Both the position numbers and the translations under genes were made by a program. A stretch of 63,617 bases of DNA, the filler included, from Chrysochromulina tobinii (lineage: Eukaryota): the NCBI GenBank assembly GCA_001275005.1. It is 9 parts of 9 records of this genome, joined end to end, with 100 filler letters (N's around TTAATTAATTAA, not from the genome) between each part and the next. Parts side by side here need not be neighbours in the genome. Positions count along the whole stretch, not along the records: positions 5,682 to 19,029 come from JWZX01000600.1; 8 more parts are not named here. One strand, 5' to 3'. Numbering within the stretch: position 1 is the stretch's first letter; each line of letters opens with the position of its first letter. The notes beneath the pieces are model-generated. The model did no database searches and had not been told where the DNA came from. It saw nothing but the letters and a program-made list of their open reading frames with translations. Positions 1 through 54,158 of the stretch are shown one piece after another.

Positions 1-867
1 GCGTTCCGGCTGCATTAACTCAAAGAGATGCTCCACGTGCTTAGGCTGTCGCGTCTCACCGCCGCCGATGCCGACGCCGACGGTGCTCCTGGCAGCCGCG
101 GCGGTCTTAGTCATCAGATTGGTGCGCACACAGCTCCAGCACAGAGCACCGTGCCCGGTGGCAGGTAGGTGGAGCTCGTGCCACCACCACTGCGGCTGAG
201 CGTCGTCTTGAGCGCGCGCTTGACCTGTGCCTTGGCCGACCGGATCTGCTCGCGCCGCTCCGCTTTGCGCGCGTCGCAAGCGAGGAGATCGACGACGACG
301 ACGATGATGATGATGATGATGGGAGCTGTCGAAGAGCACACTCGTGGTTCCCTTTTCAAATGCCATCGAGGGCTCCTCCCCATCAGCCCCCGGCGACGCT
401 GCGGACCTGCATGGAGGGCGGCGGCGGCTAAGGCGATGGAAGAGGGTGGAGGTGGCGGCGGCGGCGGCGATGGATGGCGGGACAGGGGCTGGCGAAGGCG
501 GCGGCGGCAATGGCGGTGCCGAGGGTGGCGGTGATCAAGGTGGTGTGGAAGGCGGAGGTGGGGAGGGCGGCGGCGAGAGGGGTGGCGATGAGGGCGGTGG
601 CGGAATAGGTGGCGGTGGCGAGGGTGGCTGTGAGGAGAGAGGCGATGGCATTGGCGAAGTCGACGGCGGCGATGGCGGCTGAGGCGGCGGCGGCGGTCGA
701 GTCAAGGGAGGCTGTGGCGAGGGCGGCGGTGGCGGTGTCTGCGGTGGCAGTGGTGGGGGCGACGACTGTGATAGTGTCGGGTGTGACGGAGGTGGTGGCG
801 GAGGTGGTGGTGGTGGTGGCGGTGGTGGCGATGTCGGTGGTGATGATGGCGGAAGTGGTGAGCACTT

Positions 868-1420
868 GCATGCAGCGAGTGGCCCAGCAGCGACGCGACC
901 TCCCCAACGGCCATGGCCTCGTCATTGGACACGAAGACCTGTGAGGAGGGGGGGGGCGCCGTGGTGAGCGCTTGCATGCCGACGAGCAGCACCCCGTTTG
1001 GACGCAGAGCTCCGGCCGGTTGGGTACCGGTATTACCCCGTAGAGCATCTTTTCGAGGTAGTCATGCCCGACGCGATTCATGACGAAGCCCTTGAGAGGC
1101 GGCACCGCGATCCGATCGCATGCGGCGACGGGCACGTCGTAGAGCACGAGCCCGAGCGAGTACAGAGCGGGCAAGCGCGTCGCGCGGCAGCTCACCAGCG
1201 GGCAGAGCACCCCCTGCTACCTATGGGGAAGGAGGCGAGGCGTCGTGGTGAGCAATTGCATGCAGCGCCGGTACAAGCAGAGCGCCGCCTGCCAGCTGCA
1301 TGGAATGAGGGAGACCATCAGTGGCAATCAGAATCAGAGGCAATCATCCAGTTCGGAGCACCACCTGCCACCTCGATCGCTCCGAGCGCGTTCAAATACT
1401 CCGCGGACAAGCCATGCGGC
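868..1420 (-). CDS. FAM91A1: FAM91A1-like N-terminal-domain fragment (exons ~1420-1372, 1220-1037, 938-~895; one 1-nt frameshift near 1170)
   Basis: Spliced translation ...ALYSLGLVLYDVPVAACDRIAVPPLKGFVMNRVGHDYLEKMLYG|VFVSNDEAMAVGEVASLL matches the FAM91 motif IAVPPLEGFVMNRV..DY.E.LLY.IFVSIDE. The gene appears truncated on both sides. Confidence 0.65.
939..1036 (-). other. Spliceosomal intron with CATGCAAG(C)GCTCACCACGGCGC core (family A)
   Basis: GTAATA...CCTCCTCACAG; removal joins KMLYG to VFVSNDE in the FAM91 frame; downstream exon starts GT. Confidence 0.8.
1221..1371 (-). other. Compound intron: family-B unit (1371-1296) followed by family-A unit (1295-1221)
   Basis: Units start GTGGCAGGTGGTGCTCCG and CTGGCAGGCGGCGCTCTGC, both copies of the downstream exon start GTAGCAGGGGGTGCTCTGC. 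They end ...CATGCAG and ...CCCCATAG. Confidence 0.75.
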
Positions 1421-2643: not shown

Positions 2644-4015
2644 TGCCGCTACTCACGGCAGCGCCCTCGTGTGCGCCAGAGGCGACGAGCACTAGGGCGG
2701 CTGAGAGGTCAGCCAGAGCAGCCTCCAGTGACGCCTCGTCGTTCGCGGTGAGCAGGCTGAGCCCGTACGTGTGCGGTGCGCGTACCTGTGGGGAGAGGAG
2801 AGCGAGGCGCCGTTGTGAGCACTTGCATGCGGCCTCCCTGACGCGAGGCGCCGTTGTGAGCACTTGCATGCGGCCTCCCTGACGCGAGGCGCCGTTGTGA
2901 GCACTTGCATGCGGCCTCCCTGACGCGAGGCGCGCGGCGATCCATCCCTGACGTACCGCGGGAGCGATCCATCCCAAGATCAGCAGCTCGGCAGCCAGCG
3001 TCGAGACTCCGAGGGACGCGTCGTTTCGAGCACCTCCGAGGAACGCGTCGTGTCGAGCACCTCCGCGTGACGCGTCGTGTCGAGCACCTCCGAGCGACGC
3101 GTCGTGTCGAGCACCTCCGAGGGACGCGCAGATGACGAGCAGCGCACTCGGCAGTGCCGCCGCGTGGTTCGTCAAGGCGCCCAGCACCTTTTCGCACGCA
3201 GACAGCAGCGCGCTGCCGGCGCCGGCGCCGGCCCCATCCTCGCCCGCTGCACTGACGTCGACATTGCTGCTACCCCCTGCGTCCATCTCAGCGGCGGCGA
3301 TGGCGTCAAGGAAGGTCTCGAGCACGCCGCTCAGTGAGCGATGCAGGAAGCGGCGCGCGGAGGGGAGCCGACAGAGGTGCTCGGCGAGCAGGTGCCGGAG
3401 GAGCGGGCTGGGCCACGGCGCCGACTCAACGTCTGCAAAGTCGGGCGGTGCCGCCGCCGGTGATGCGAGGTGAGGGGCTGCAAAGTCGGGCGGTGCCGCC
3501 GGTGATGCGAGGTGAGGGAGGCGTTCGAGTTCGCAGAGTGCCACGACGGCGGCGCGCTGGCGCCGCTCGTCGCCCGGATTGAGCGGATCGAAGAGGGCGC
3601 TGGCCGCTTCGGCGAGGCACGCCGCCTCCTCCTCCGCCAGCCCAGGGGCCGTGCGAGTGCTCTTCTGAACGAGCAGCCACGCGAGCACCGTAGGCTCACG
3701 CATGAGGTGGATGGCGCGCATGATCCAGCGCAGATGCGGACGTAGCACGGCCGGCAGACTGGGCGCCGGGAGCCGTGGCGGTGTCGGCGACGCACCAGAG
3801 CCCGCCGGCTCCAGCAAGGGCGTAGTCGGCGGCAAACGGCACGGCTTTCCGAGGCAGCTGAGCAGTCGCTCCACCGTCAGCCGCAATCCGACGGCCTCCT
3901 CGCCCAGCCGCACGAGTGTAGCTTCGAGGTTCTGGATCGCGCGATCCTCGCAGCCGACGAGCACGTCGAGGTGCTGCAGGGTCACGGCCGCAGCACGCCA
4001 GGAAGAGACGGCCAT
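2513..4015 (-). CDS. Degenerate RasGAP-like domain protein (intron 2786-2956); may continue into a coiled-coil/Pro-rich frame at 2604-2149
   Basis: After splicing it reads ...ELLILGWIAPA|VRAPHTYGL, resembling the RasGAP FLRFICPAI.SP..YGL motif. It also has LPSALLVIC and four GGAR(H/N)DA(S/F)x 27-nt coding repeats. Confidence 0.5.
2786..2956 (-). other. Family-A intron containing three tandem 41-nt copies of the core
   Basis: GTACGT...CTCCCCACAG; 41-nt period on the + strand at 2802, 2843 and 2884; length 171 nt (in frame). Confidence 0.8.
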
Positions 4016-11285: not shown

Positions 11286-13780
11286 ATGTTCCCTCCCTCG
11301 CCGCGGCGCATCACCGTGCACGCGGTGTGCTCCGCGGCGCAGGATTTGCTGGACGCCGTCGAGCGCGAGCCCAAGGCGGCCGCACAGGCAGCCGTCATTG
11401 CGGCGAGCGCCGGCGTCAAGCAGGCGCTCCGGATGCCTTCGGCCGCTCTCGCCAACGCTGTGGCTCGGCTCGCCAGCGCACTGCTCTCGGATGTGCCGTA
11501 CCGGCTGACGCAGCAGGCGCTGCGTGCGCTGCTCGACGCTTGCGAGCGCCTCTGCACCACCGTCGACCAGCAGGCCGCGCTGCTCATGGAGTGCGCGCCG
11601 CTCTGGACAGGCGCCATCGTGCATGCTAATCGCGATGTGCGCACCTTCTCGCTCACGCTGCTCGCCAAGCTGAGTTCGGCCAACGTCGAGCTGCCCTTGA
11701 GCGCGATCGATCGCGTGCTTGACTGCGGTGTCACCACGCCGCTCGCGCAGCTGCTCTGCGAGAGCGACAAGGGCAAGCCCTCGATCGGCGACCAGCCGAG
11801 CGTGCCCGTGTTGTGCGCGGTGCTCTCTCTGCGCGGGCTGCTGCGCTCCGCTCACGCTGCCACGCGCTGCCGCGACGAGGGCCTCCTCGCAGCCCAGCTG
11901 CGCGGCATGCCCGCGGCCGTGCGCCAGGGCGCCGTCGGCCTCGCTACTGCCGAGCTGTTGATGCGACTGGGCGAGTTGGGTGCGCCTTGTGCGCTGGGCA
12001 TGCGACTGCGGGCGGCGCTGCTGGGCGCGCCCAACTCGGCGCCGAGAGGCGCGGCACGTGCGGATGCGCGCGAGGCGGCGGCGCCGTCGGCCGCGGACGA
12101 GTCGGAGTCGTGGGTGGAGCCATGGGTGGCGCCGGATGCTGACATGGTATGGCCTGACGGTTTGAGCCTCGGCCTTCATCAGGTACTTGCGTGCTGATTG
12201 CATGCTGATTGCATGCTGATTGCATGCTGATTGCATGCTGATGGTTTGAGCTTCGGCCTTCATCAGGTGCTCCTCGCTGTGCGCGCTCCCGACTGGCTGG
12301 CGATGCTCCGCGCGAACGCGTCTCCTCATCAGTCGAGGGCTCCCGCCGCTGCCACCTCGCCTGGCGCATCGGTCCATGGCGCGTGTTGCTGGCAGCTGTC
12401 GTCGGCGGTGGCGACCTCGTTGCCTCGGGAAGCGTGCGTGGCGCTCTATGAACTTGTCCTCAGTGGCTCGGCCGCCCTCGAAGGAGCCGGCGGCACCGGC
12501 CGTGGCCGCGGCAGCACCGGCGGTGGCAGCGCAGTCCCAGTACTACGCCCCAAGGCCTTGCTCGCCGCCGCCGACACACTCGGCCTGCGCGCGCTCCTCC
12601 TCGCGCCTCCGTGCCACCCTACCGGTCGCCCCTGGCTCGAGTTACACCTCGCTGCCGTGCCTGGGGGGCTTGTACCAGTTGCTGACGTGCGCTTTGCGTT
12701 GGCGGATGGGGCGCTGCTCGCGCACCGTGCGCTGCTTGCTGCCGGTAGTGACTATTTTAGGACGTCGCTCGCCTTTAATGCCAACTTTGGTGGCGGGGGC
12801 AACAGCGGCAACATCAGCGGAGGCGACGACGATGGCTCAGGGTCTCAGCCAGCGTCGCCGCTTGTGGTGCGTGTGTCGGATGCGAGCGTGGCGCCGTTCA
12901 TGGCGATGCTTCGTTTTGTATACGCGGGGACCGTCGAGTTACCGGTCGCCACACCGCCCTCGCCCATCCCCGCCCCCCCTCCCGTGACAGACCCGGCACA
13001 CGCCTCACCCAGCGTGGCTGAGGGCAGCGGGGGCGCCTCCAGCGGCGGAGGATTATCTTCTCAGGTGGAGGCGCAGGGGCTAGCCTTATGGCAGCGGCTG
13101 GGGGACGAGGCGATCGTGTCACAGGAATGGATGCATGCACGACTCCAGCACTGCCTCTCTACCGCCGCCGACGCCGACGCTGGCGCTTCCCCCGCCACCA
13201 CCACCCCCGCCGCCGCCGCCAACGGCGGCGCCACCCGCGCCAGCGTCGCGACCCCGCGCCCTGTCCACGCAGAGGCGGGCGCGCCGCCCGACGGGCGGCT
13301 ATGTGCGGCGGGCGCGCTCGAGTTGGCGCTGCTCGGCGATCGGTACTGCTCGATGGTCTAAGTCCGCACGCCCCAGCATGCAAGTGCTCACCACGGCGCT
13401 GTGTCTCCCCACAGGTACATGCTCGATGGGCTAAGTCCGCACGCGCACCGGCGACTGCGCGCCGCCCTCACTGCCGCCGAGGTCGTGCCGCTGCTCCTGC
13501 GTGCGCAAGAGGAGTGCTCGAGTGCTGCGGCGCAGATTATCTTTGGCTGGGCGGTGGAGCACTACGAGCAGGTGCTTGCTCTCCTCGACGCGTGGCCCTG
13601 GCATGCAAGTGCTCACCACGGCGCTGTGTCCACCCACAGGTGCATGCGCTCCTCGACGGGTGGCTCACGTGTGCCCCTTCCGCGCGCCCACACGTGCCGC
13701 GCTTGCTCGGCGACAAGGCGCTCCTGGCTCTGAGCACTAACCTGCGCACCGAGATGCTCCGAGTACGCCACGGGCTGTGA
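11286..13780 (+). CDS. ARM/HEAT-like + BTB/POZ domain protein; exons 11286-12182, 12267-13342, 13415-13571, 13640-13780
   Basis: BTB motifs ADVRF...LAHRALLAAGSDYFR, FMAMLRFVYAG and, after splicing, LLGDRYMLDGL. Three GT-AG introns restore one frame. Confidence 0.8.
12183..12266 (+). other. Family-B intron whose 3' end copies the upstream exon end
   Basis: GTACTT-(GCTGATTGCAT)x4-CTGATGGTTTGAGCTTCGGCCTTCATCAG; the last 29 nt match exon 12154-12182 at 27/29; in-frame stop inside. Confidence 0.88.
13343..13414 (+). other. Family-A intron whose 5' end copies the downstream exon start
   Basis: GTAC-TGCTCGATGGTCTAAGTCCGCACGC vs exon GTACATGCTCGATGGGCTAAGTCCGCACGC (28/30), then CATGCAAGTGCTCACCACGGCGCTGTGTCTCCCCACAG. 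Confidence 0.88.
13572..13639 (+). other. Family-A intron whose 5' end copies the downstream exon start
   Basis: GTGCTTGCTCTCCTCGACGCGTGGC vs exon GTGCATGCGCTCCTCGACGGGTGGC (22/25), then CATGCAAGTGCTCACCACGGCGCTGTGTCCACCCACAG. Confidence 0.88.
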
Positions 13781-14013
13781 AGCTATAGGTGATCGTATCT
13801 TTCGTCCGTTTCGGGCCGTCCCGCGTGAACACGACGTGCGTCGAGACATTTTGGTTCTTAGAAGATCAAGTGTAGCCTTCGAGGTCGCAGCGCGCGCGGT
13901 CGGGGGGCTCTAACATGCTGTAGCTCAACGCCCACAGGTCAGACGCGAGACGCAGACGAGACTCGTGTGTGGAACACACTCGACAGTGACGACCCATGTA
14001 CCGTAACTCAAGA

Positions 14014-37856: not shown

Positions 37857-40255
37857 GCCGGTACGCGGACTATTGCGCCCAGATGAACCTCGACAAGGTA
37901 GAGGTGAAATGTACTACCGTCAAGCACTTCACCGAGCTTTGGAACGCTGACAAACAGATCATCGAGGTAAGTGCCACGGGGCATTCGATCTGTGATATTT
38001 GTACCGCATTCGACGCTCGAGCAGAGGCACTAGGGAGTCGGATGGATGCAGAGGCAAGCAGGCTCAGACTTGAGCTTGATGAGGATCGGCGTGAGCATTA
38101 CCGCGTGCACGATGCATCACGTAAAGTATTCGATAACGCAACATACCAAGCTGAGCACCGTCCTGACTTGGTGACTATGATAAACATCGACGCGCCCACG
38201 AAGAGGCAATTTGATTTGCCGCGCCATCCCAAAAATCGAGACGTTCCAAAAGGCCTTGAAGGCGAGAAGCGCTGGGAATCAAAAGTGACGGGCGCAATGG
38301 ACGCAAGTGTCGGCGTGAGGGTGTTCGTGGCCCACGAGTCAGTGAAGGCGGGACCAAATCTGGTTGCAACTATCTTGTACCTGACGTTGCTAGGTCACAT
38401 CAAGCTTGGCAGCCCCCTCGGACAGATATTGCACCTACAGCTGGACAACACCTGCGGCGAAAACAAATGCCTATGCATTTTAGCCACAGTAGCCTGGCTG
38501 GTTCAATCATGTTCATTTGACGGGGCTTTGATCAACTGCATGCCTGTTGGGCATACGTTCACGATCCTTGATCAGTCCTACAATACACTCATAGATGGCA
38601 TGCATCAAAGCACGCTCCCCACGGTCGAAGCCATGCTCAACGAGATCCAACGTCGCATGCGCGAATACAACTGTGTGGAAGTTACGGAATTGAAAGCCGT
38701 GTTCGACTTCTGGGAATGGTTCAAGCCTGTTATTGTGAAGCTCACGGGATTTGCTCGGCGTGAAGCCCTCGGCGGGCTCTACACAGGTATGGGTCAGTTC
38801 CAATTTAATCGCGATGCGTCCGGCCAGGTCAGGCTGAAGATGCGAGTCGCTCCAACTGCTACAACATGGATTCCGGAAGGTGATGGCTACCTACTGTTCA
38901 ACGTGACCTCGCCCCTCTCAGGTGGGCCTCCACTGGCGCCGCTCAAGTCTTTTGCCGATTGGCAGAAGGAAACTGTGGTCACCAACATTAGACGCTGGTT
39001 GCCTTACCTGGGAGTGGATCTCGCGGCTCAGCAAGATGCTAAAGCTGAATGGGAAACGCGCCTCGCATCATTGACTCAATCAGTGCGTGATATTGAGCTG
39101 AGAGGTGAAGCCCCAGTATGGGAGGGCCCCCCCCAGAGCCCGGAGCCAAGAAACAACACTGCGGGAGGAGCAAGCGACGGCGCCGCCCGCCCATGGATAG
39201 GGGTTGTTGACAACCCTCCTGTCAACCCGATCGACGTCGAACGCGGCAAGCAGTACACGCAGTCGGTCACCGCATGGCAAAAATCCACTAGGGCCGAAGC
39301 TGCCCGCTCCGGAGTAGCGCCTCCTGTGCACCTGTCTGATTACCTCATAGTCAAGGACAGCTCCAACTTGCCGTGCTTGATTCGCGTATTGGGCGGCACG
39401 CTGGGCTTAGGTGGTGGCGATGTCCTCGTCCATGGCACCACGTACGACCAAGACCCCAACCCCTTGGTGGCAGTCTCTTCTTGGGGGTGGGGTACTTTCT
39501 CTCCTAGACGCAATGGAGCCTATGATCCACACGATCGGAGCAAAGGACCCGTTCACGTCTCGACACACGATATCAAACGCAGCGACATTTTAGTTTATGA
39601 TGCCAAAGCATTCTTGGATTCTAGAGAGGAGCTCCGCTTGCATGTTGACACTCTCAAAGCGTTGGCATTATCTGGAGAGTACCCATTACCAACGCCGTTG
39701 CCATCGACGCATCTTCGCTGTCCAGCTGGAGCCCCCGCATCCTATGTGCCCCCTGCGAAGCGGACTACCAGCGCGGACGCTGGCACGGGCTCGAGGGATG
39801 CAGGTGCAGGCGCAGGTGCAGGCTCAGGCTCAGTCTCAGGCGCGGGCAAACGCGCGGGCGCCCCAGTTGCAACCCCTGGGAAGCGTAAAAGCGCTGGCTC
39901 GGGCTCTGTACCGGAGGGCTCCGAGGTCTCGGGCGAGGTCTCGTCGGGCGCGGGCGCGGGCACGGGCGCGGGCGCGGGCGCGGGCACCGTCTTGGGCGCT
40001 ATTGTGCCGGCTAGAACGGATTCTGCAGAAGCAGAAATGTATGAGGTCGAAGCACTTATTGGTCGCAAGAAGTCACGAGGTGCCAGGTACGACCATGGCT
40101 TTCGCAAAGGCACATGGATTTACCTTGTGAAATGGGAAGGCTATGAGGAAGCAACCTGGGAAGATGCAAGAAACATCGAAAATTCATTGATAGAAGCGTT
40201 TGAGGATGAACATGGAAGTGCACATACCTCAGATTTTGACTCCGCCGAGGAGTAA
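37857..40255 (+). mobile_element. DDE-type transposase (Sola/DUF7869-like) with C-terminal chromodomain; 5' truncated by contig edge
   Basis: ICDIC, LHLQLDNTCGENK, MPVGHTFTILDQSY; chromodomain YEVEALIG...YLVKWEGYEEATWEDARNI. Intronless and lower GC than host genes. Confidence 0.7.
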
Positions 40256-50484: not shown

Positions 50485-52288
50485 TGCTCGACAGCGCCGA
50501 GGCTGCCGGCCGGCCCATCCCGTCCCTGACGAACAACCCGGACGCGCTGCCACAGCGTGGCTCGTGGGCCGTTCGCCGTCTCGACGAGCGACCGCATCTC
50601 CTCGGGGGTCGGCGATTCTGCGTCCAGCTCTTCGTGCTGGTTGCGACGGAGCCGCTGCGCGTGTACGTGCACAGCGAGGGAATTGTCTGGCGAGCGGCGC
50701 GCGCGTGGCATGCTCCGGTCGGCCCGCCGGAGACGTACGCGAAAGGTCCTCGCCGATTCTCAACGTCTGCTTGGCAGTCGGGCGCTCGCGACTTTGCGAC
50801 ACGGCTAGTACCTGGCGAGCTGTGGCCACTAACGTCCCTGCTGCGCCGGCTCGAGGACACCGAAGCCTCTCCGGACTCCACCGCCGACACGGATGGCCAG
50901 GCGAAGCTGAAGCGTGCAGACGGCAGCGCGAACGCATCGGTGACGGCAGCGGCAACGCTATGGGGATCTCTCGAGCGCGCGAGTGGTGCGGCGGCGGTTG
51001 CGAGCCTCTCACGTCAAACGGGATCGGGCTACCGCCATCCACGCACGGGCAGCGGCTTCCCTGGCAGTCACCTCTACCGTTCGATGATGGGCTATGGCGA
51101 GCCTCTCACGCCAGCAGCCGCGGCGGCGCGCGGATACGCTGGGGCGTTCCAGCTGCTCTCGGTACGACTCCGCTCAGCTCTTGATTGCCTCTGGATGGCC
51201 ACTAATTGCAATTGATTGCACTTGATTGCCTCTCTCCTCAGGTGCGACTCAGCTTAGATGAGGCGCTCACTCCGACCATCCTCTCGGTCGACCCGAGCCC
51301 CGAGTTGCCACTCGACCGACGCTTCGACCCATACCGGACCGCGCAGCAGCCGCCGCAGCCGCCGCAGCCGCCGCAGCCGCCGCAGCCGCAGCAGCCGCAG
51401 CGGCCGCCGCAGCCGCCGGAGCTGGCCCCCGAACGTAAGGTCGAGCTCGTGGACACTCTGCTGGCGCAGCCGCTGGTGCAGCCGTCGAACATGCCCTCAT
51501 CGTCGACGTCCTCACCGGACGCGCTGACCAAGGCAGCCGGCGGCCGGCCAGCGGATCAACGCGCGCGCCGGCGTGCGGCGGCGGCAGCGACGCTGGAGGC
51601 TGCTTGGAGCGCGGACGTAGGGCAGCCGTGGTGGCATGCCAACTGCATGCGGCGCGTGGCATCCGACGTCCTCAACCTGACGGGCGCGGTGCAGCACCCG
51701 CGCCGTCGCGAGCTCTTTCGGGAGTTGCGCACCCAATTGCAGCGCGCCGTCACAGTGCGATCTCTCAAGGGCTCCTCTCGAAAGCAGCAGCGCGAGCTCG
51801 AGCAGGAGCGTCTCCGAAGGGCCAAGGGGATGCGTGGTGGCAAGGGGGCTCATACCAGGAGCGGTGCGGAGGGCAAGAGGAAGCGCCGCGGCTGGTTCAG
51901 TCAGATCTCGGGAGCTTTCTCATGGTTCATGGGATCAGTCTCGATGGGCGACAGCAGCGAGTTTGAGTGCAAAATGAGGCTTCCACTGACCACGCGCGAG
52001 GAGGTTGACGAACCTTGCCTCACGGCCGCCGACGTAGACCAGCTCACATTGGCCGATACTGAGTTCCTTTGGCGCTTTGGGTTCCGGCGTATCGTGCCCG
52101 GGGCGGCGGACGAAGCGCGCCGCGCGTTGCGCCCCTTGAAGCCAGCTGACATGCTGCTTGCGCGCTACCTTGCTCGATGGCCTAAGGATGAGGAGCCCAT
52201 GGCGCTGCCGCCGTGGGTGCATGAGCTGGCCCAGAGAATCGAGGGGGAGGCGGCCGAATCTGAGGCTGGAGCTGGCAGCTTGTTGTAG
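50485..52288 (+). CDS. Tubulin-tyrosine-ligase-like protein, degenerate, 5' truncated (intron 51162-51241)
   Basis: ERPHLLGGRRFCVQLFVLVATEPLRVYVHSEG and FQLLS|VRLSLDEALTPTILSVDPSP align with TTL motifs. Confidence 0.65.
51162..51241 (+). other. Family-B intron whose 5' end copies the downstream exon start
   Basis: GTACGACTCCGCTCAGCT vs exon GTGCGACTCAGCTTAGAT (14/18), then TTGATTGC repeats and CTCTCTCCTCAG; removal restores frame. Confidence 0.82.
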
Positions 52289-52817: not shown

Positions 52818-54158
52818 TCACGCGACATCAGCCCCGCGGAACGCATGCGACATGACAAAGGCCGCCTCGAGGCCCTGCGAGTAATTGAAGCGCGGATCGC
52901 ACAGCGTCTCGTAGTGGTTCCCCAGCATCTCCTCGAGCACATTGATGGAGCCGCCCGTGCACTCTGTGACGTGGGGCTGGCCGGTCATCTCGAGGTGCAT
53001 GCCCGCAAGCACGGAGCCGAGCTCGCGGTGGATTGCAAGCGCCTTCGTGCACTCGCCGAGCACGTCGTCAAACTTGCGCGTCTTGAGCTTGTTCGCGGCA
53101 GTGACCGTGTTGCCGTGCACGCCATCCACCTGCCAGACGACGGGCACGCCGCTCGCCTGGACGGCGCGGATGTGGGCGGGCAGCATCGCCTCGACCTTGT
53201 CGTTGCCGTAGCGCGTGATCAGCACCAGCCGCCCCTCGACCTTGTCTGGGTTGAGGATCTTGACGAGACGCTGAAGCTCGTCAGCCGCCATGCTAGGGCC
53301 GACCTTGCACCCGATTGGGTTCTTGATGCCGCGAAAGTACTCGACGTGCCCGCCGGTGAGCTGGCGCGTGCGGTCACCGATCCACACCATGTGCGCCGAC
53401 AGGTTGTAGAAGCCCTTGCCCGGCACCTCGCGTGTGAGTGCTTCCTCGAGGTCGAGCTGCATCGCCTCGTGCGCCGTGAACATCGGGCCGGCCACATTGG
53501 GCGGCGCCGACTGGATCTCGCTGACCGTCTTGGCGTACGAGGCGTACTTGGGGCTCGCCTTGTATGCCGCGGCGTCGAGGCCCGAGAGCATCTTGGGCGC
53601 GAACTCGGGGTCCATCTGCAGCCCGCGCATGAAGTTTTGGCACGCCGCCGAGTGCCAATAGCCCTCGAGCAGCCGCCTCGGGTCCCACGCGCGCTCCGTG
53701 GGCTCAAATCCGTTGATGTTTTCGCCCTTGAAGGACTTGATCTCGCCGAGGGTGGGATGCTTCTCGACGGGGCTCGAGCGCGGCTTGCCGTACTGGCCGG
53801 CGATGCGGCACACGCGCACCGGCGGCACGCCCGTTGCCGTCTCGAACACCGCTCCCATCTGCACGACGAGCTTGATCTGCGCCGTGGTGTAATCGGCGTT
53901 GCAGTCGACGAAGCGCTCGGCGCAGTCACCGCCCTGGATGATGAACTTGTCGCCGCGGGCGCACTGCGCGAGGAGCGAGGTCAAATTGTCAACCTCGTAC
54001 GCTGTCACGAGCGGCGGTAGCGAGGAGAGCTTGGCCATGGTAGTCTCGTAGAGGGCTTTGTCGTCGTAGGTGGCCATTTGCAGCGCCTCGTAGTTGCGCC
54101 AGGAACCCGGCGTCCACGTGCGCGCGCTCACGGAATCGACGACATCATCCACATCCAT
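52818..54158 (-). CDS. Class II DAHP synthase (phospho-2-dehydro-3-deoxyheptonate aldolase)
   Basis: WTPGSWR, QGGDCAE, RIAGQYGKPRS, SAHMVWIGDRTRQL, HGNT, HLEMTG..VTEC, TLCDPR. Confidence 0.95.
   Translation of the reverse strand: MDVDDVVDSVSARTWTPGSWRNYEALQMATYDDKALYETTMAKLSSLPPLVTAYEVDNLTSLLAQCARGDKFIIQGGDCAERFVDCNADYTTAQIKLVVQMGAVFETATGVPPVRVCRIAGQYGKPRSSPVEKHPTLGEIKSFKGENINGFEPTERAWDPRRLLEGYWHSAACQNFMRGLQMDPEFAPKMLSGLDAAAYKASPKYASYAKTVSEIQSAPPNVAGPMFTAHEAMQLDLEEALTREVPGKGFYNLSAHMVWIGDRTRQLTGGHVEYFRGIKNPIGCKVGPSMAADELQRLVKILNPDKVEGRLVLITRYGNDKVEAMLPAHIRAVQASGVPVVWQVDGVHGNTVTAANKLKTRKFDDVLGECTKALAIHRELGSVLAGMHLEMTGQPHVTECTGGSINVLEEMLGNHYETLCDPRFNYSQGLEAAFVMSHAFRGADVA

What the first reader, a model, noticed from the sequence alone, without database searches (positions are those of the whole stretch)
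12154..13665. Intron-generating system: introns built from a copy of the flanking exon plus a shared branch-point core
Seen: seven GT-AG introns in four unrelated genes on three contigs (939-1036, 1221-1371, 2786-2956, 12183-12266, 13343-13414, 13572-13639, 51162-51241). Each carries core A (CATGCAAGTGCTCACCACGGCGC plus a pyrimidine tract to CAG/TAG) or core B (GATTGC/GCTGAT repeats). Five contain an imperfect 18-30 nt copy of the adjacent exon (e.g. 28/30, 22/25, 27/29, 14/18) that supplies a splice site. One has a 12-nt copy and one has no clear copy. All seven sit at G|GT, with the downstream exon starting GT. The four ordinary introns here (26199, 43255, 57600, 57834) have no core, no exon copy, and none is followed by GT. 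Known: Introner elements in Micromonas, Aureococcus and dothideomycete fungi create introns, and those described as DNA transposons have short TSDs and TIRs. Inference: here a TIR-less core is inserted with a long, variable-length duplication, as expected from target-primed reverse transcription or staggered-break repair with templated filler. The CTCAC/CTGAT motifs would act as branch points, making each insertion splice out cleanly.
Basis: partly seen in the sequence, partly recalled or inferred. Interest (0 to 1): 0.9.

Follow-up and report, generated by a model that had tools for sequence, protein, structure and literature searches.

The report
Introns that copy their neighbours' ends
In an alga that is likely a haptophyte, many introns consist of a roughly 30-base copy of the gene's own exon joined to half of another intron, and they likely arise when a repair process copies from a nearby intron of the same gene, which would be a way to gain introns in bulk without a transposon.

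Summary
Real and widespread. All seven introns lie at the stated places; RNA contigs join across four. Core A occurs in at least 132 metagenome stretches; 129 of 186 acceptor-bearing copies have a 12-50 nt (median 28) duplicate of the next exon that supplies the donor. Mirror forms duplicate the previous exon up to its AG. Cores A and B are two halves of one intron lineage. Two sites are empty in closely related assemblies. There are no inverted repeats, no poly-A and no fixed duplication length. Inserts resemble introns of the same locus more than distant ones, and in five cases, read by eye, the donor is a downstream neighbour. Joints show microhomology. Best reading (0.55): templated repair with target duplication that re-uses intron ends, on an RNA or DNA template; a transposon mobilised in trans is the main rival (0.2). 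Host: probably a prymnesiophyte haptophyte. This scan reported a similar footprint on another piece of this genome before (e1-2577349); empty sites, mirror forms and neighbour donors are added here. New variant of introner-like gain.

The parts
11286..13780 (+). Host gene (BTB-domain protein) holding three family introns
   Evidence: 773-codon stop-free frame after removing the three introns; BTB hit E 3e-5 in the exon 12267-13340; start codon taken from the ORF list, not verified
12154..12182 (+). Exon end (target) that is copied into the first intron
   Evidence: 27/29 match to 12238-12266
12183..12266 (+). Type II intron: GT + four 11-nt core B repeats + copy of the upstream exon end (12238-12266) that supplies the AG
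   Evidence: skipped in RNA contigs of X15 and X17
13343..13414 (+). Type I intron: copy of next exon start (13343-13371) supplies GT; core A 13376-13399; linker and acceptor 13400-13414
   Evidence: 28/30; in-frame stop if retained; not bridged in RNA, one contig starts at 13414; same in L126
13415..13444 (+). Exon start (target) of the 13343 intron
13572..13639 (+). Type I intron: copy 13572-13596; core A 13601-13624; linker shares its first six bases with the neighbour at 13343
   Evidence: 22/25; skipped in X15 and X16; neighbour likeness
13640..13664 (+). Exon start (target) of the 13572 intron
939..1036 (-). Core A intron (core 956-979) without a recognisable exon copy; a second donor gives an 89-nt intron
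   Evidence: 98-nt skip in X14, X15, X18 and 89-nt skip in X15
1221..1371 (-). Compound intron: copy 1 (1356-1371) + core B ending in an inner AG (1296-1345) + degenerate copy 2 (1264-1295) + core A (1240-1263) + acceptor; reads as two events at one site
   Evidence: sequence, 14/16; second copy judged by eye; stops in all frames if retained; RNA contigs stop at 1222, no joint listed
2786..2956 (-). Intron with a copy of the upstream exon end (2931-2948) and three 41-nt tandem units each holding core A
   Evidence: 171-nt skip in X14, X15, X18
51162..51241 (+). Type I intron with a core B acceptor: degenerate copy 51162-51177 + B repeats + acceptor
850..873 (-).

Best explanation
These are recently gained spliceosomal introns made of a duplicated piece of the host exon plus one end of an existing intron, and they likely arise by microhomology-guided template switching during repair or copying of a transcribed gene, with no fixed mobile element. 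Shown: the anatomy (target copy + half intron), splicing of four window introns, empty sites, microhomology at joints, likeness to introns of the same locus. Inferred steps: (1) a staggered break or a stalled strand leaves a 3' end about 30 nt from its partner end; (2) the end of the strand complementary to the RNA pairs by a few bases (GT.. at an exon start, or inside the intron) with an older family intron, often the next one downstream; (3) 30-60 nt of that intron's 3' end (type I) or 5' end (type II) is copied with errors and slippage, which would explain the ever-changing linker and the 10-11-nt core B repeats; copying mostly stops at the palindrome that begins core A; (4) the strand returns by 2-5 nt of microhomology and recopies the exon, which makes the duplication; (5) selection keeps products whose duplicate begins at GT/GC or ends at AG, because they splice out without changing the mRNA; each becomes a donor in turn. 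The template would be nascent RNA of the same gene (slightly favoured, because every donor that could be ordered lies downstream) or DNA; the enzyme is not identified.
For: Duplicate anchored at the splice junction: 129 of 186 core A acceptors above the 99th percentile of 600 mismatched pairs, 12-50 nt, median identity 0.94, 35 perfect; 29 of 63 core B acceptors; 13 of 22 full left arms are followed by a copy of the upstream exon end, all 13 ending exactly at the donor. Empty versus filled: L010/L036 one target copy, L071 two perfect copies around an insert; L065 empty, L044 filled three times, and the empty allele's two diagnostic sites cannot come from one crossover of today's copies, which favours gain. 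Local donors: identical variant cores in 7 of 58 same-locus pairs against 54 of 3162 others (Fisher p 9e-5); 3 of 19 fillers match a neighbour's private sequence; the new L071 insert equals its neighbour 524 nt downstream over 8 nt left and 21 nt right of the core; L038, L013 and L054 carry private bases of a downstream neighbour. Clustering 4.4 against 0.8 elements per 10 kb. Microhomology of 2 nt or more in 17 of 26 direct joints, about 18% expected. No TIR (0 of 107), no A-run (0 of 107), 33 different copy lengths. Same strand for 78 of 84 adjacent cores and 315 of 340 core B motifs.
Against: Most inserts have no donor in view: 16 of 19 fillers match no neighbour within the fetched flanks, and near-identical inserts also occur on different contigs (L016/L121, L035/L055, L012/L024), so copying in trans is likely too. 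65 of 109 left edges fall on the same two bases, sharper than random switching predicts and like an element end. 77 of 103 joints carry extra filler and were not scored. Same-locus pairs do not share exon starts more than others overall (p 0.24). Pair counts are not independent, one same-locus pair lies in a tandem array, and clustering and strand bias can come from gene class and selection alone. The five ordered donors were picked by eye from an output whose middle was cut; one rests on 5 nt. No genome was held, so an autonomous element could not be sought.
Confidence: 0.55

Rival explanations
1. A non-autonomous element (SINE-like, target-primed, or a TIR-less introner) is mobilised in trans by an unseen autonomous partner that makes widely staggered cuts; splice-competent insertions survive.
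For: Variable duplication length, fixed 3' end, truncated 5' end with microhomology in type I; sharp left edge at a 12-bp palindrome; shared inserts on different contigs; non-LTR introners are about 5% of classified cases in PMC12130899 (passage).
Against: Mirror type II forms have a fixed 5' end and a ragged 3' end; no poly-A; 101 different linkers in 107 copies; inserts carry private bases of same-gene neighbours; few opposite-strand neighbours (6 of 84).
Confidence: 0.2
2. A full-length introner (core B + core A) inserted first; later one half was overwritten by partial conversion with spliced cDNA or an empty allele (aborted intron loss), which left the exon copy.
For: Fuller copies exist (22 left-arm hits, some with both cores and no long duplicate); explains both mirror types and exact anchoring at the junction; 13 of 107 type I donors directly follow another family acceptor (a 14th row was a false call).
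Against: Needs two events per site, yet L071 shows a perfect duplicate and an insert equal to its neighbour where L010 is empty; 60 of 107 inserts keep no base of the left arm and only 19 keep three or more.
Confidence: 0.12
3. The spliceosome reverse-splices an excised family intron into the displaced DNA strand of an R-loop in the same gene; a nick about 30 nt away on the other strand primes copying of the RNA, which is left incomplete and joined by microhomology.
For: Sense orientation, clustering and same-gene donors, one exact intron end per event; the R-loop model is set out in PMC4540971 and favoured in PMC10996645 (passages).
Against: The published model inserts a whole intron cleanly; here half an intron and a long duplicate are the rule; the L038 filler includes three bases of the donor's upstream exon, which an excised intron would lack; family introns show no common RNA fold (z -1.9 to 0.5 in 7 sequences).
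Confidence: 0.1
4. Old introns with a conserved splicing signal, or assembly artefacts at repeats.
For: Metagenome assemblies can mis-join repeats; unit numbers differ between assemblies (L021/L047, L035/L077).
Against: The window's two core A introns are the same in the independent locus L126; RNA confirms four; duplicates differ from their targets by substitutions; empty sites exist.
Confidence: 0.03

Closest known systems
Introners that take one splice site from the target-site duplication (Aureococcus, Micromonas, Symbiodinium, Polarella classes 4/5 and 6/8/10; Chrysochromulina sp. family of Gozashti 2022 Fig. 2C)
   Same: Repeated intron sequence in unrelated genes; the insert brings one splice site, the duplicate the other; the mRNA is unchanged. 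The Chrysochromulina family also lacks TIRs and carries the 5' site, like type II here (passage).
   Different: Published duplications are 3-9 nt and fixed per family; here 12-50 nt with 33 lengths. Similarity does not reach both intron ends; both halves are used in mirror fashion; donors are often neighbours.
Daphnia pulex new introns from staggered double-strand breaks (PMC4202315)
   Same: Exon end repeated at the far end of the new intron; repeated events at one site; presence/absence in populations (passages).
   Different: Repeats there are 4-12 bp; the passages read describe no shared intron family or donor intron.
TIR-less, TSD-less introners (fungal ILEs, some Micromonas IEs, Hypoxylaceae sister stwintrons) and the R-loop reverse-splicing model; intron transposition in yeast (Lee and Stevens 2016, seen only as cited in PMC10996645)
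   Same: Short, non-coding, sense-strand introns copied from other introns; a central palindrome in the Hypoxylaceae family.
   Different: Those are described as whole introns inserted seamlessly; here half introns with a long duplicate.
Polymerase theta-type templated insertions and RNA-templated break repair (recalled; only a reference title and a search listing seen)
   Same: Short inserts copied from nearby sequence, microhomology at joints, slippage repeats.
   Different: Not known to me as a source of a genome-wide intron family; no enzyme was identified here.

Membership tests
Introner (operational definition, PMC9860276) | Similar introns in many non-paralogous genes | tested here: met
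Introner (operational definition, PMC9860276) | Similarity reaches to within about 10 intronic bases of both intron ends | tested here: not met
   donor-to-core distance 14-61 nt, locus-specific; type II ends in the local exon copy; criterion read
Introner (operational definition, PMC9860276) | Spliced out of the mRNA | tested here: met
   4 of the 6 window introns laid on RNA are bridged; contigs, not raw reads
Introner (operational definition, PMC9860276) | Recent gain, presence/absence between close relatives | tested here: met
   2 of about 12 orthologous core A sites empty in one assembly
TIR DNA-transposon (MITE) introner | Terminal inverted repeats | tested here: not met
   0 of 107 inserts with a 6-bp score; intron ends 4 of 107, as in shuffles
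TIR DNA-transposon (MITE) introner | Short duplication of fixed length | tested here: not met
   12-50 nt, 33 lengths
Non-LTR (SINE/TPRT) introner | Variable duplication, fixed 3' end, 5' truncation with microhomology | tested here: met
   type I
Non-LTR (SINE/TPRT) introner | 3' poly-A or simple-repeat tail | tested here: not met
   0 of 107 with five A; the end is a splice acceptor
Non-LTR (SINE/TPRT) introner | No class of copies with intact 5' end and missing 3' end | tested here: not met
   type II
Non-LTR (SINE/TPRT) introner | Autonomous partner with a shared 3' end | not testable with these tools
   no genome held; none seen among 25 window frames scanned with Pfam
Daphnia-type staggered-break intron gain | Exon end repeated at the opposite intron end | tested here: met
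Daphnia-type staggered-break intron gain | Repeat of 4-12 bp | tested here: not met
   median 28; my threshold cannot see repeats under about 11 nt, so short ones may exist among the 57 unscored copies
Reverse-spliced (R-loop) introner | Sense strand only | tested here: met
   78 of 84 and 315 of 340; gene strand not annotated independently
Reverse-spliced (R-loop) introner | Whole intron inserted without duplication | tested here: not met

The most novel reading that the evidence does not exclude
A transposase-free, self-propagating intron system: unspliced introns in a gene's own nascent RNA serve as templates for repair upstream, so that intron ends spread from intron to intron along genes and have supplied most of this alga's introns. 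It would be a natural, ongoing, genome-scale case of RNA-templated intron birth, invisible to introner screens that need similarity at both ends.
Probability: 0.3. Interest if true: 0.92.

Novelty: new variant of a known kind. Interest (0 to 1): 0.76.

Why it matters
How new spliceosomal introns arise in bulk is an open question; transposons (introners) are stated to be the only mechanism that can explain bursts (passage of PMC12130899). Here a lineage appears to be gaining introns now, each event keeps a record of target, donor and joints, and sites are polymorphic, so donor-recipient rules and RNA versus DNA templating can be tested by population sequencing. Screens that demand similarity at both intron ends would miss most of these copies, so such gain may be under-counted. 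The duplicates also mislead gene prediction and read mapping in haptophyte genomes.

Tried and rejected
No whole genome or record handles were available, so genome-wide counts and a search for an autonomous element were not made. The cluster look-up could not be made; the host was placed by one protein search instead. The protein atlas gave no answer for two unexplained frames. Rfam: no hit in the window. RNA structure: no common fold. Core A in prokaryote genomes: 0; in viral contigs: 1, at the very end of a phage-like contig, probably a mis-join. Linker derived from the local exon: a small excess against the upstream exon (p 0.017) is driven by tandem units, none against the downstream exon (p 0.5), rejected. 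Core decay tracking duplicate decay: no correlation (rho -0.02); seeds were chosen for exact cores, so uninformative. Targeting of existing intron ends: 13 of 107, about five of them tandem units, not clearly above chance. First null was inflated by duplicate loci (77 of 197) and was redone; the nulls may be inflated likewise, and (25 of 57) includes tandem units and misplaced donors, so it is only rough. Holes in RNA cover at 13343 and 1221 are no evidence against splicing.

Full report
Setting. The window is nine pieces separated by N runs, mostly 54-71% GC. An intronless DAHP synthase at 52821-54158 has Haptolina brevifila (69%) and Prymnesium parvum (67%) as closest named hits, so the host is probably a prymnesiophyte haptophyte; the stretch is held by mixed-culture DNA runs and by RNA runs, one labelled freshwater. 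No genome was held.

Observation. All seven introns, their cores and exon copies are as described. Core A matches 7 times in the window and never in 100 shuffles. RNA contigs skip four of the six introns laid (12183, 13572; 939, 2786); 13343 and 1221 are not bridged but would stop the frame if kept. These are contigs, and DNA can be present in RNA libraries, but a precise GT-AG skip is what splicing gives. An eighth core at 850-873 was missed.

The family. After dropping 15 redundant or orthologous loci and 11 duplicate exons, 186 copies had a pyrimidine tract and AG. Of these 134 are followed by GT and 17 by GC (background 5% and 14%), and 129 have, upstream of the core, a copy of the next exon that starts at its first base: 12-50 nt, median 28, median identity 0.94, 35 perfect; intron length median 77. 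An unanchored test gave 135 of 200. I call this type I. The same build occurs with a core B acceptor (29 of 63), as at 51162. The mirror, type II, has GT plus the left arm and then a copy of the previous exon's end; 13 of 22 left-arm hits show it and all 13 copies end exactly at the donor, as at 12183. In fuller copies core B runs directly into core A, so the two cores are halves of one intron lineage. Compound introns with both types, or with tandem units, are common (1221, 2786, L132, L067). Among 125 non-exact cores the bases G-C-T-C-A have 1, 0, 5, 2 and 2 changes while others have up to 41, and the A lies 23-38 nt from the intron end: a branch point is likely, not shown.

Recent gain. L010 and L036 hold one copy of a 33-34-nt target, L071 (about 98% alike) holds two perfect copies around an insert, 81 nt in all; L065 is empty where L044 has three units. 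In the second case the empty allele has the exon's state at the first diagnostic site and the copy's state at the second, which a single crossover between today's repeats cannot give, so gain is favoured. About ten other orthologous sites, among them both window core A introns in L126, are shared. Loss by recombination between the repeats is also possible and is not excluded for L010.

Not a standard element. No terminal inverted repeats, no A-tail, 33 copy lengths; 101 different linkers between core and acceptor in 107 clean copies. The left edge is sharp, though: 65 of 109 non-exact copies begin at the same two bases, inside a 12-bp palindrome. Of 26 joints without filler 17 share 2 or more bases between exon copy and insert, against about 18% expected; 77 joints have filler. 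Core B joints show the same by eye.

Donors are often neighbours. Tails are more alike within a locus (129 pairs, 0.14) than between loci (17041 pairs, 0.02), and variant cores are identical in 7 of 58 against 54 of 3162 pairs (pairs are not independent). Elements are 4.4 per 10 kb near another element and 0.8 in the window. Three of 19 testable fillers match a neighbour's private bases. By eye, from an output with its middle cut: the new L071 insert equals the intron 524 nt downstream; L038 carries the neighbour's exon end and donor; L013 an 18-nt variant arm; L054 20 nt of the neighbour's own exon copy; L011 five bases only. In all five the donor lies downstream; I saw no upstream donor, but five is few. 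The window pair 13343/13572 shares an unusual linker start. Against a purely local process: 16 of 19 fillers have no donor in view, and L016/L121, L035/L055 and L012/L024 share inserts across contigs whose linkage is unknown.

Mechanism. Both types can be written as one synthesis of the strand complementary to the RNA: copy the exon up to the junction, hop by microhomology to an older intron, copy one end, hop back about 30 nt and recopy the exon. This accounts for the duplicate, the exact junction, the mirror types, the joints, the error-prone linker and the donors. Selection then keeps the spliceable products. The template may be nascent RNA, whose downstream introns would still be unspliced, or DNA at a staggered break (polymerase theta-like; recalled knowledge). 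I give 0.55 to templated switching of either kind, 0.2 to an element mobilised in trans, 0.12 to remodelling of full-length introners, 0.1 to spliceosomal reverse splicing with incomplete copying and 0.03 to old introns or artefact.

Comparison with print. It works like introners that recruit one splice site from the duplication, but those have 3-9-nt fixed duplications (PMC9860276, passages; 10.1101/2020.10.14.339549, parts 1-2 of 4; PMC11282704, passages), and it fails the both-ends criterion. It shares the staggered-break footprint of Daphnia new introns, 4-12 bp (PMC4202315, passages). Reverse-splicing models insert whole introns (PMC4540971, PMC10996645, PMC8469720, passages); Lee and Stevens 2016 was not held. 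Haptophyte introners are listed for many marine genomes in the supplement of PMC9860276 (rows seen; file cut when stored, no core motif found), and PMC12130899 lists 0 families for Chrysochromulina tobinii (files 13-14 not searched). The published consensus files were not visible, so the full-length form may match a listed family. Eight paper searches showed no report of 12-50-nt junction-anchored duplicates with neighbour donors; subscription papers are largely outside that library.

Verdict. Observation confirmed, interpretation partly supported, new variant of a known kind, interest 0.76. At about one core A intron per 10 kb in this window, and family introns outnumbering the four ordinary ones, thousands per genome would be expected; that is an extrapolation from 64 kb.

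Noticed in passing
window 407-899 (minus): Eighth core A at 850-873 followed by about 440 nt of low-complexity CAC/CGC repeats; possible long intron from 899 to 407.
   Followed up: partly
window 939-1027 (minus): Second donor 9 nt inside the 939-1036 intron gives an 89-nt skip in X15.
   Followed up: no
window 13773; L010/L071; L017/L105: Short tandem duplications of 3-12 nt differ between populations (12-nt insertion at the BTB gene's stop in X15; several): the lineage seems prone to duplication in general.
   Followed up: no
window 3001-3130: Four to five 27-nt tandem repeats in the exon next to the 2786 intron.
   Followed up: no
   Followed up: partly
L133:2850-3060: A phage-like contig ends in a family intron with repeats; probably a mis-joined contig end.
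   Followed up: partly
window 37883-40255: 790-codon frame with DUF7869 and a C-terminal chromodomain on a lower-GC piece; could be a mobile-element protein; no core nearby.
   Followed up: partly
window 13863-13876: 14 bases in the 3' flank that I recall as resembling U2 snRNA near its branch-pairing region (recalled, no call); Rfam found nothing; likely chance.
   Followed up: no
L107:230-290; L032 (minus) near 200-300: Other 10-nt-type intron repeats besides core B (ATCTCCCCAC-like, GAGATGCGCC-like) occur with the same exon-copy build, so more donor lineages may exist.
   Followed up: no
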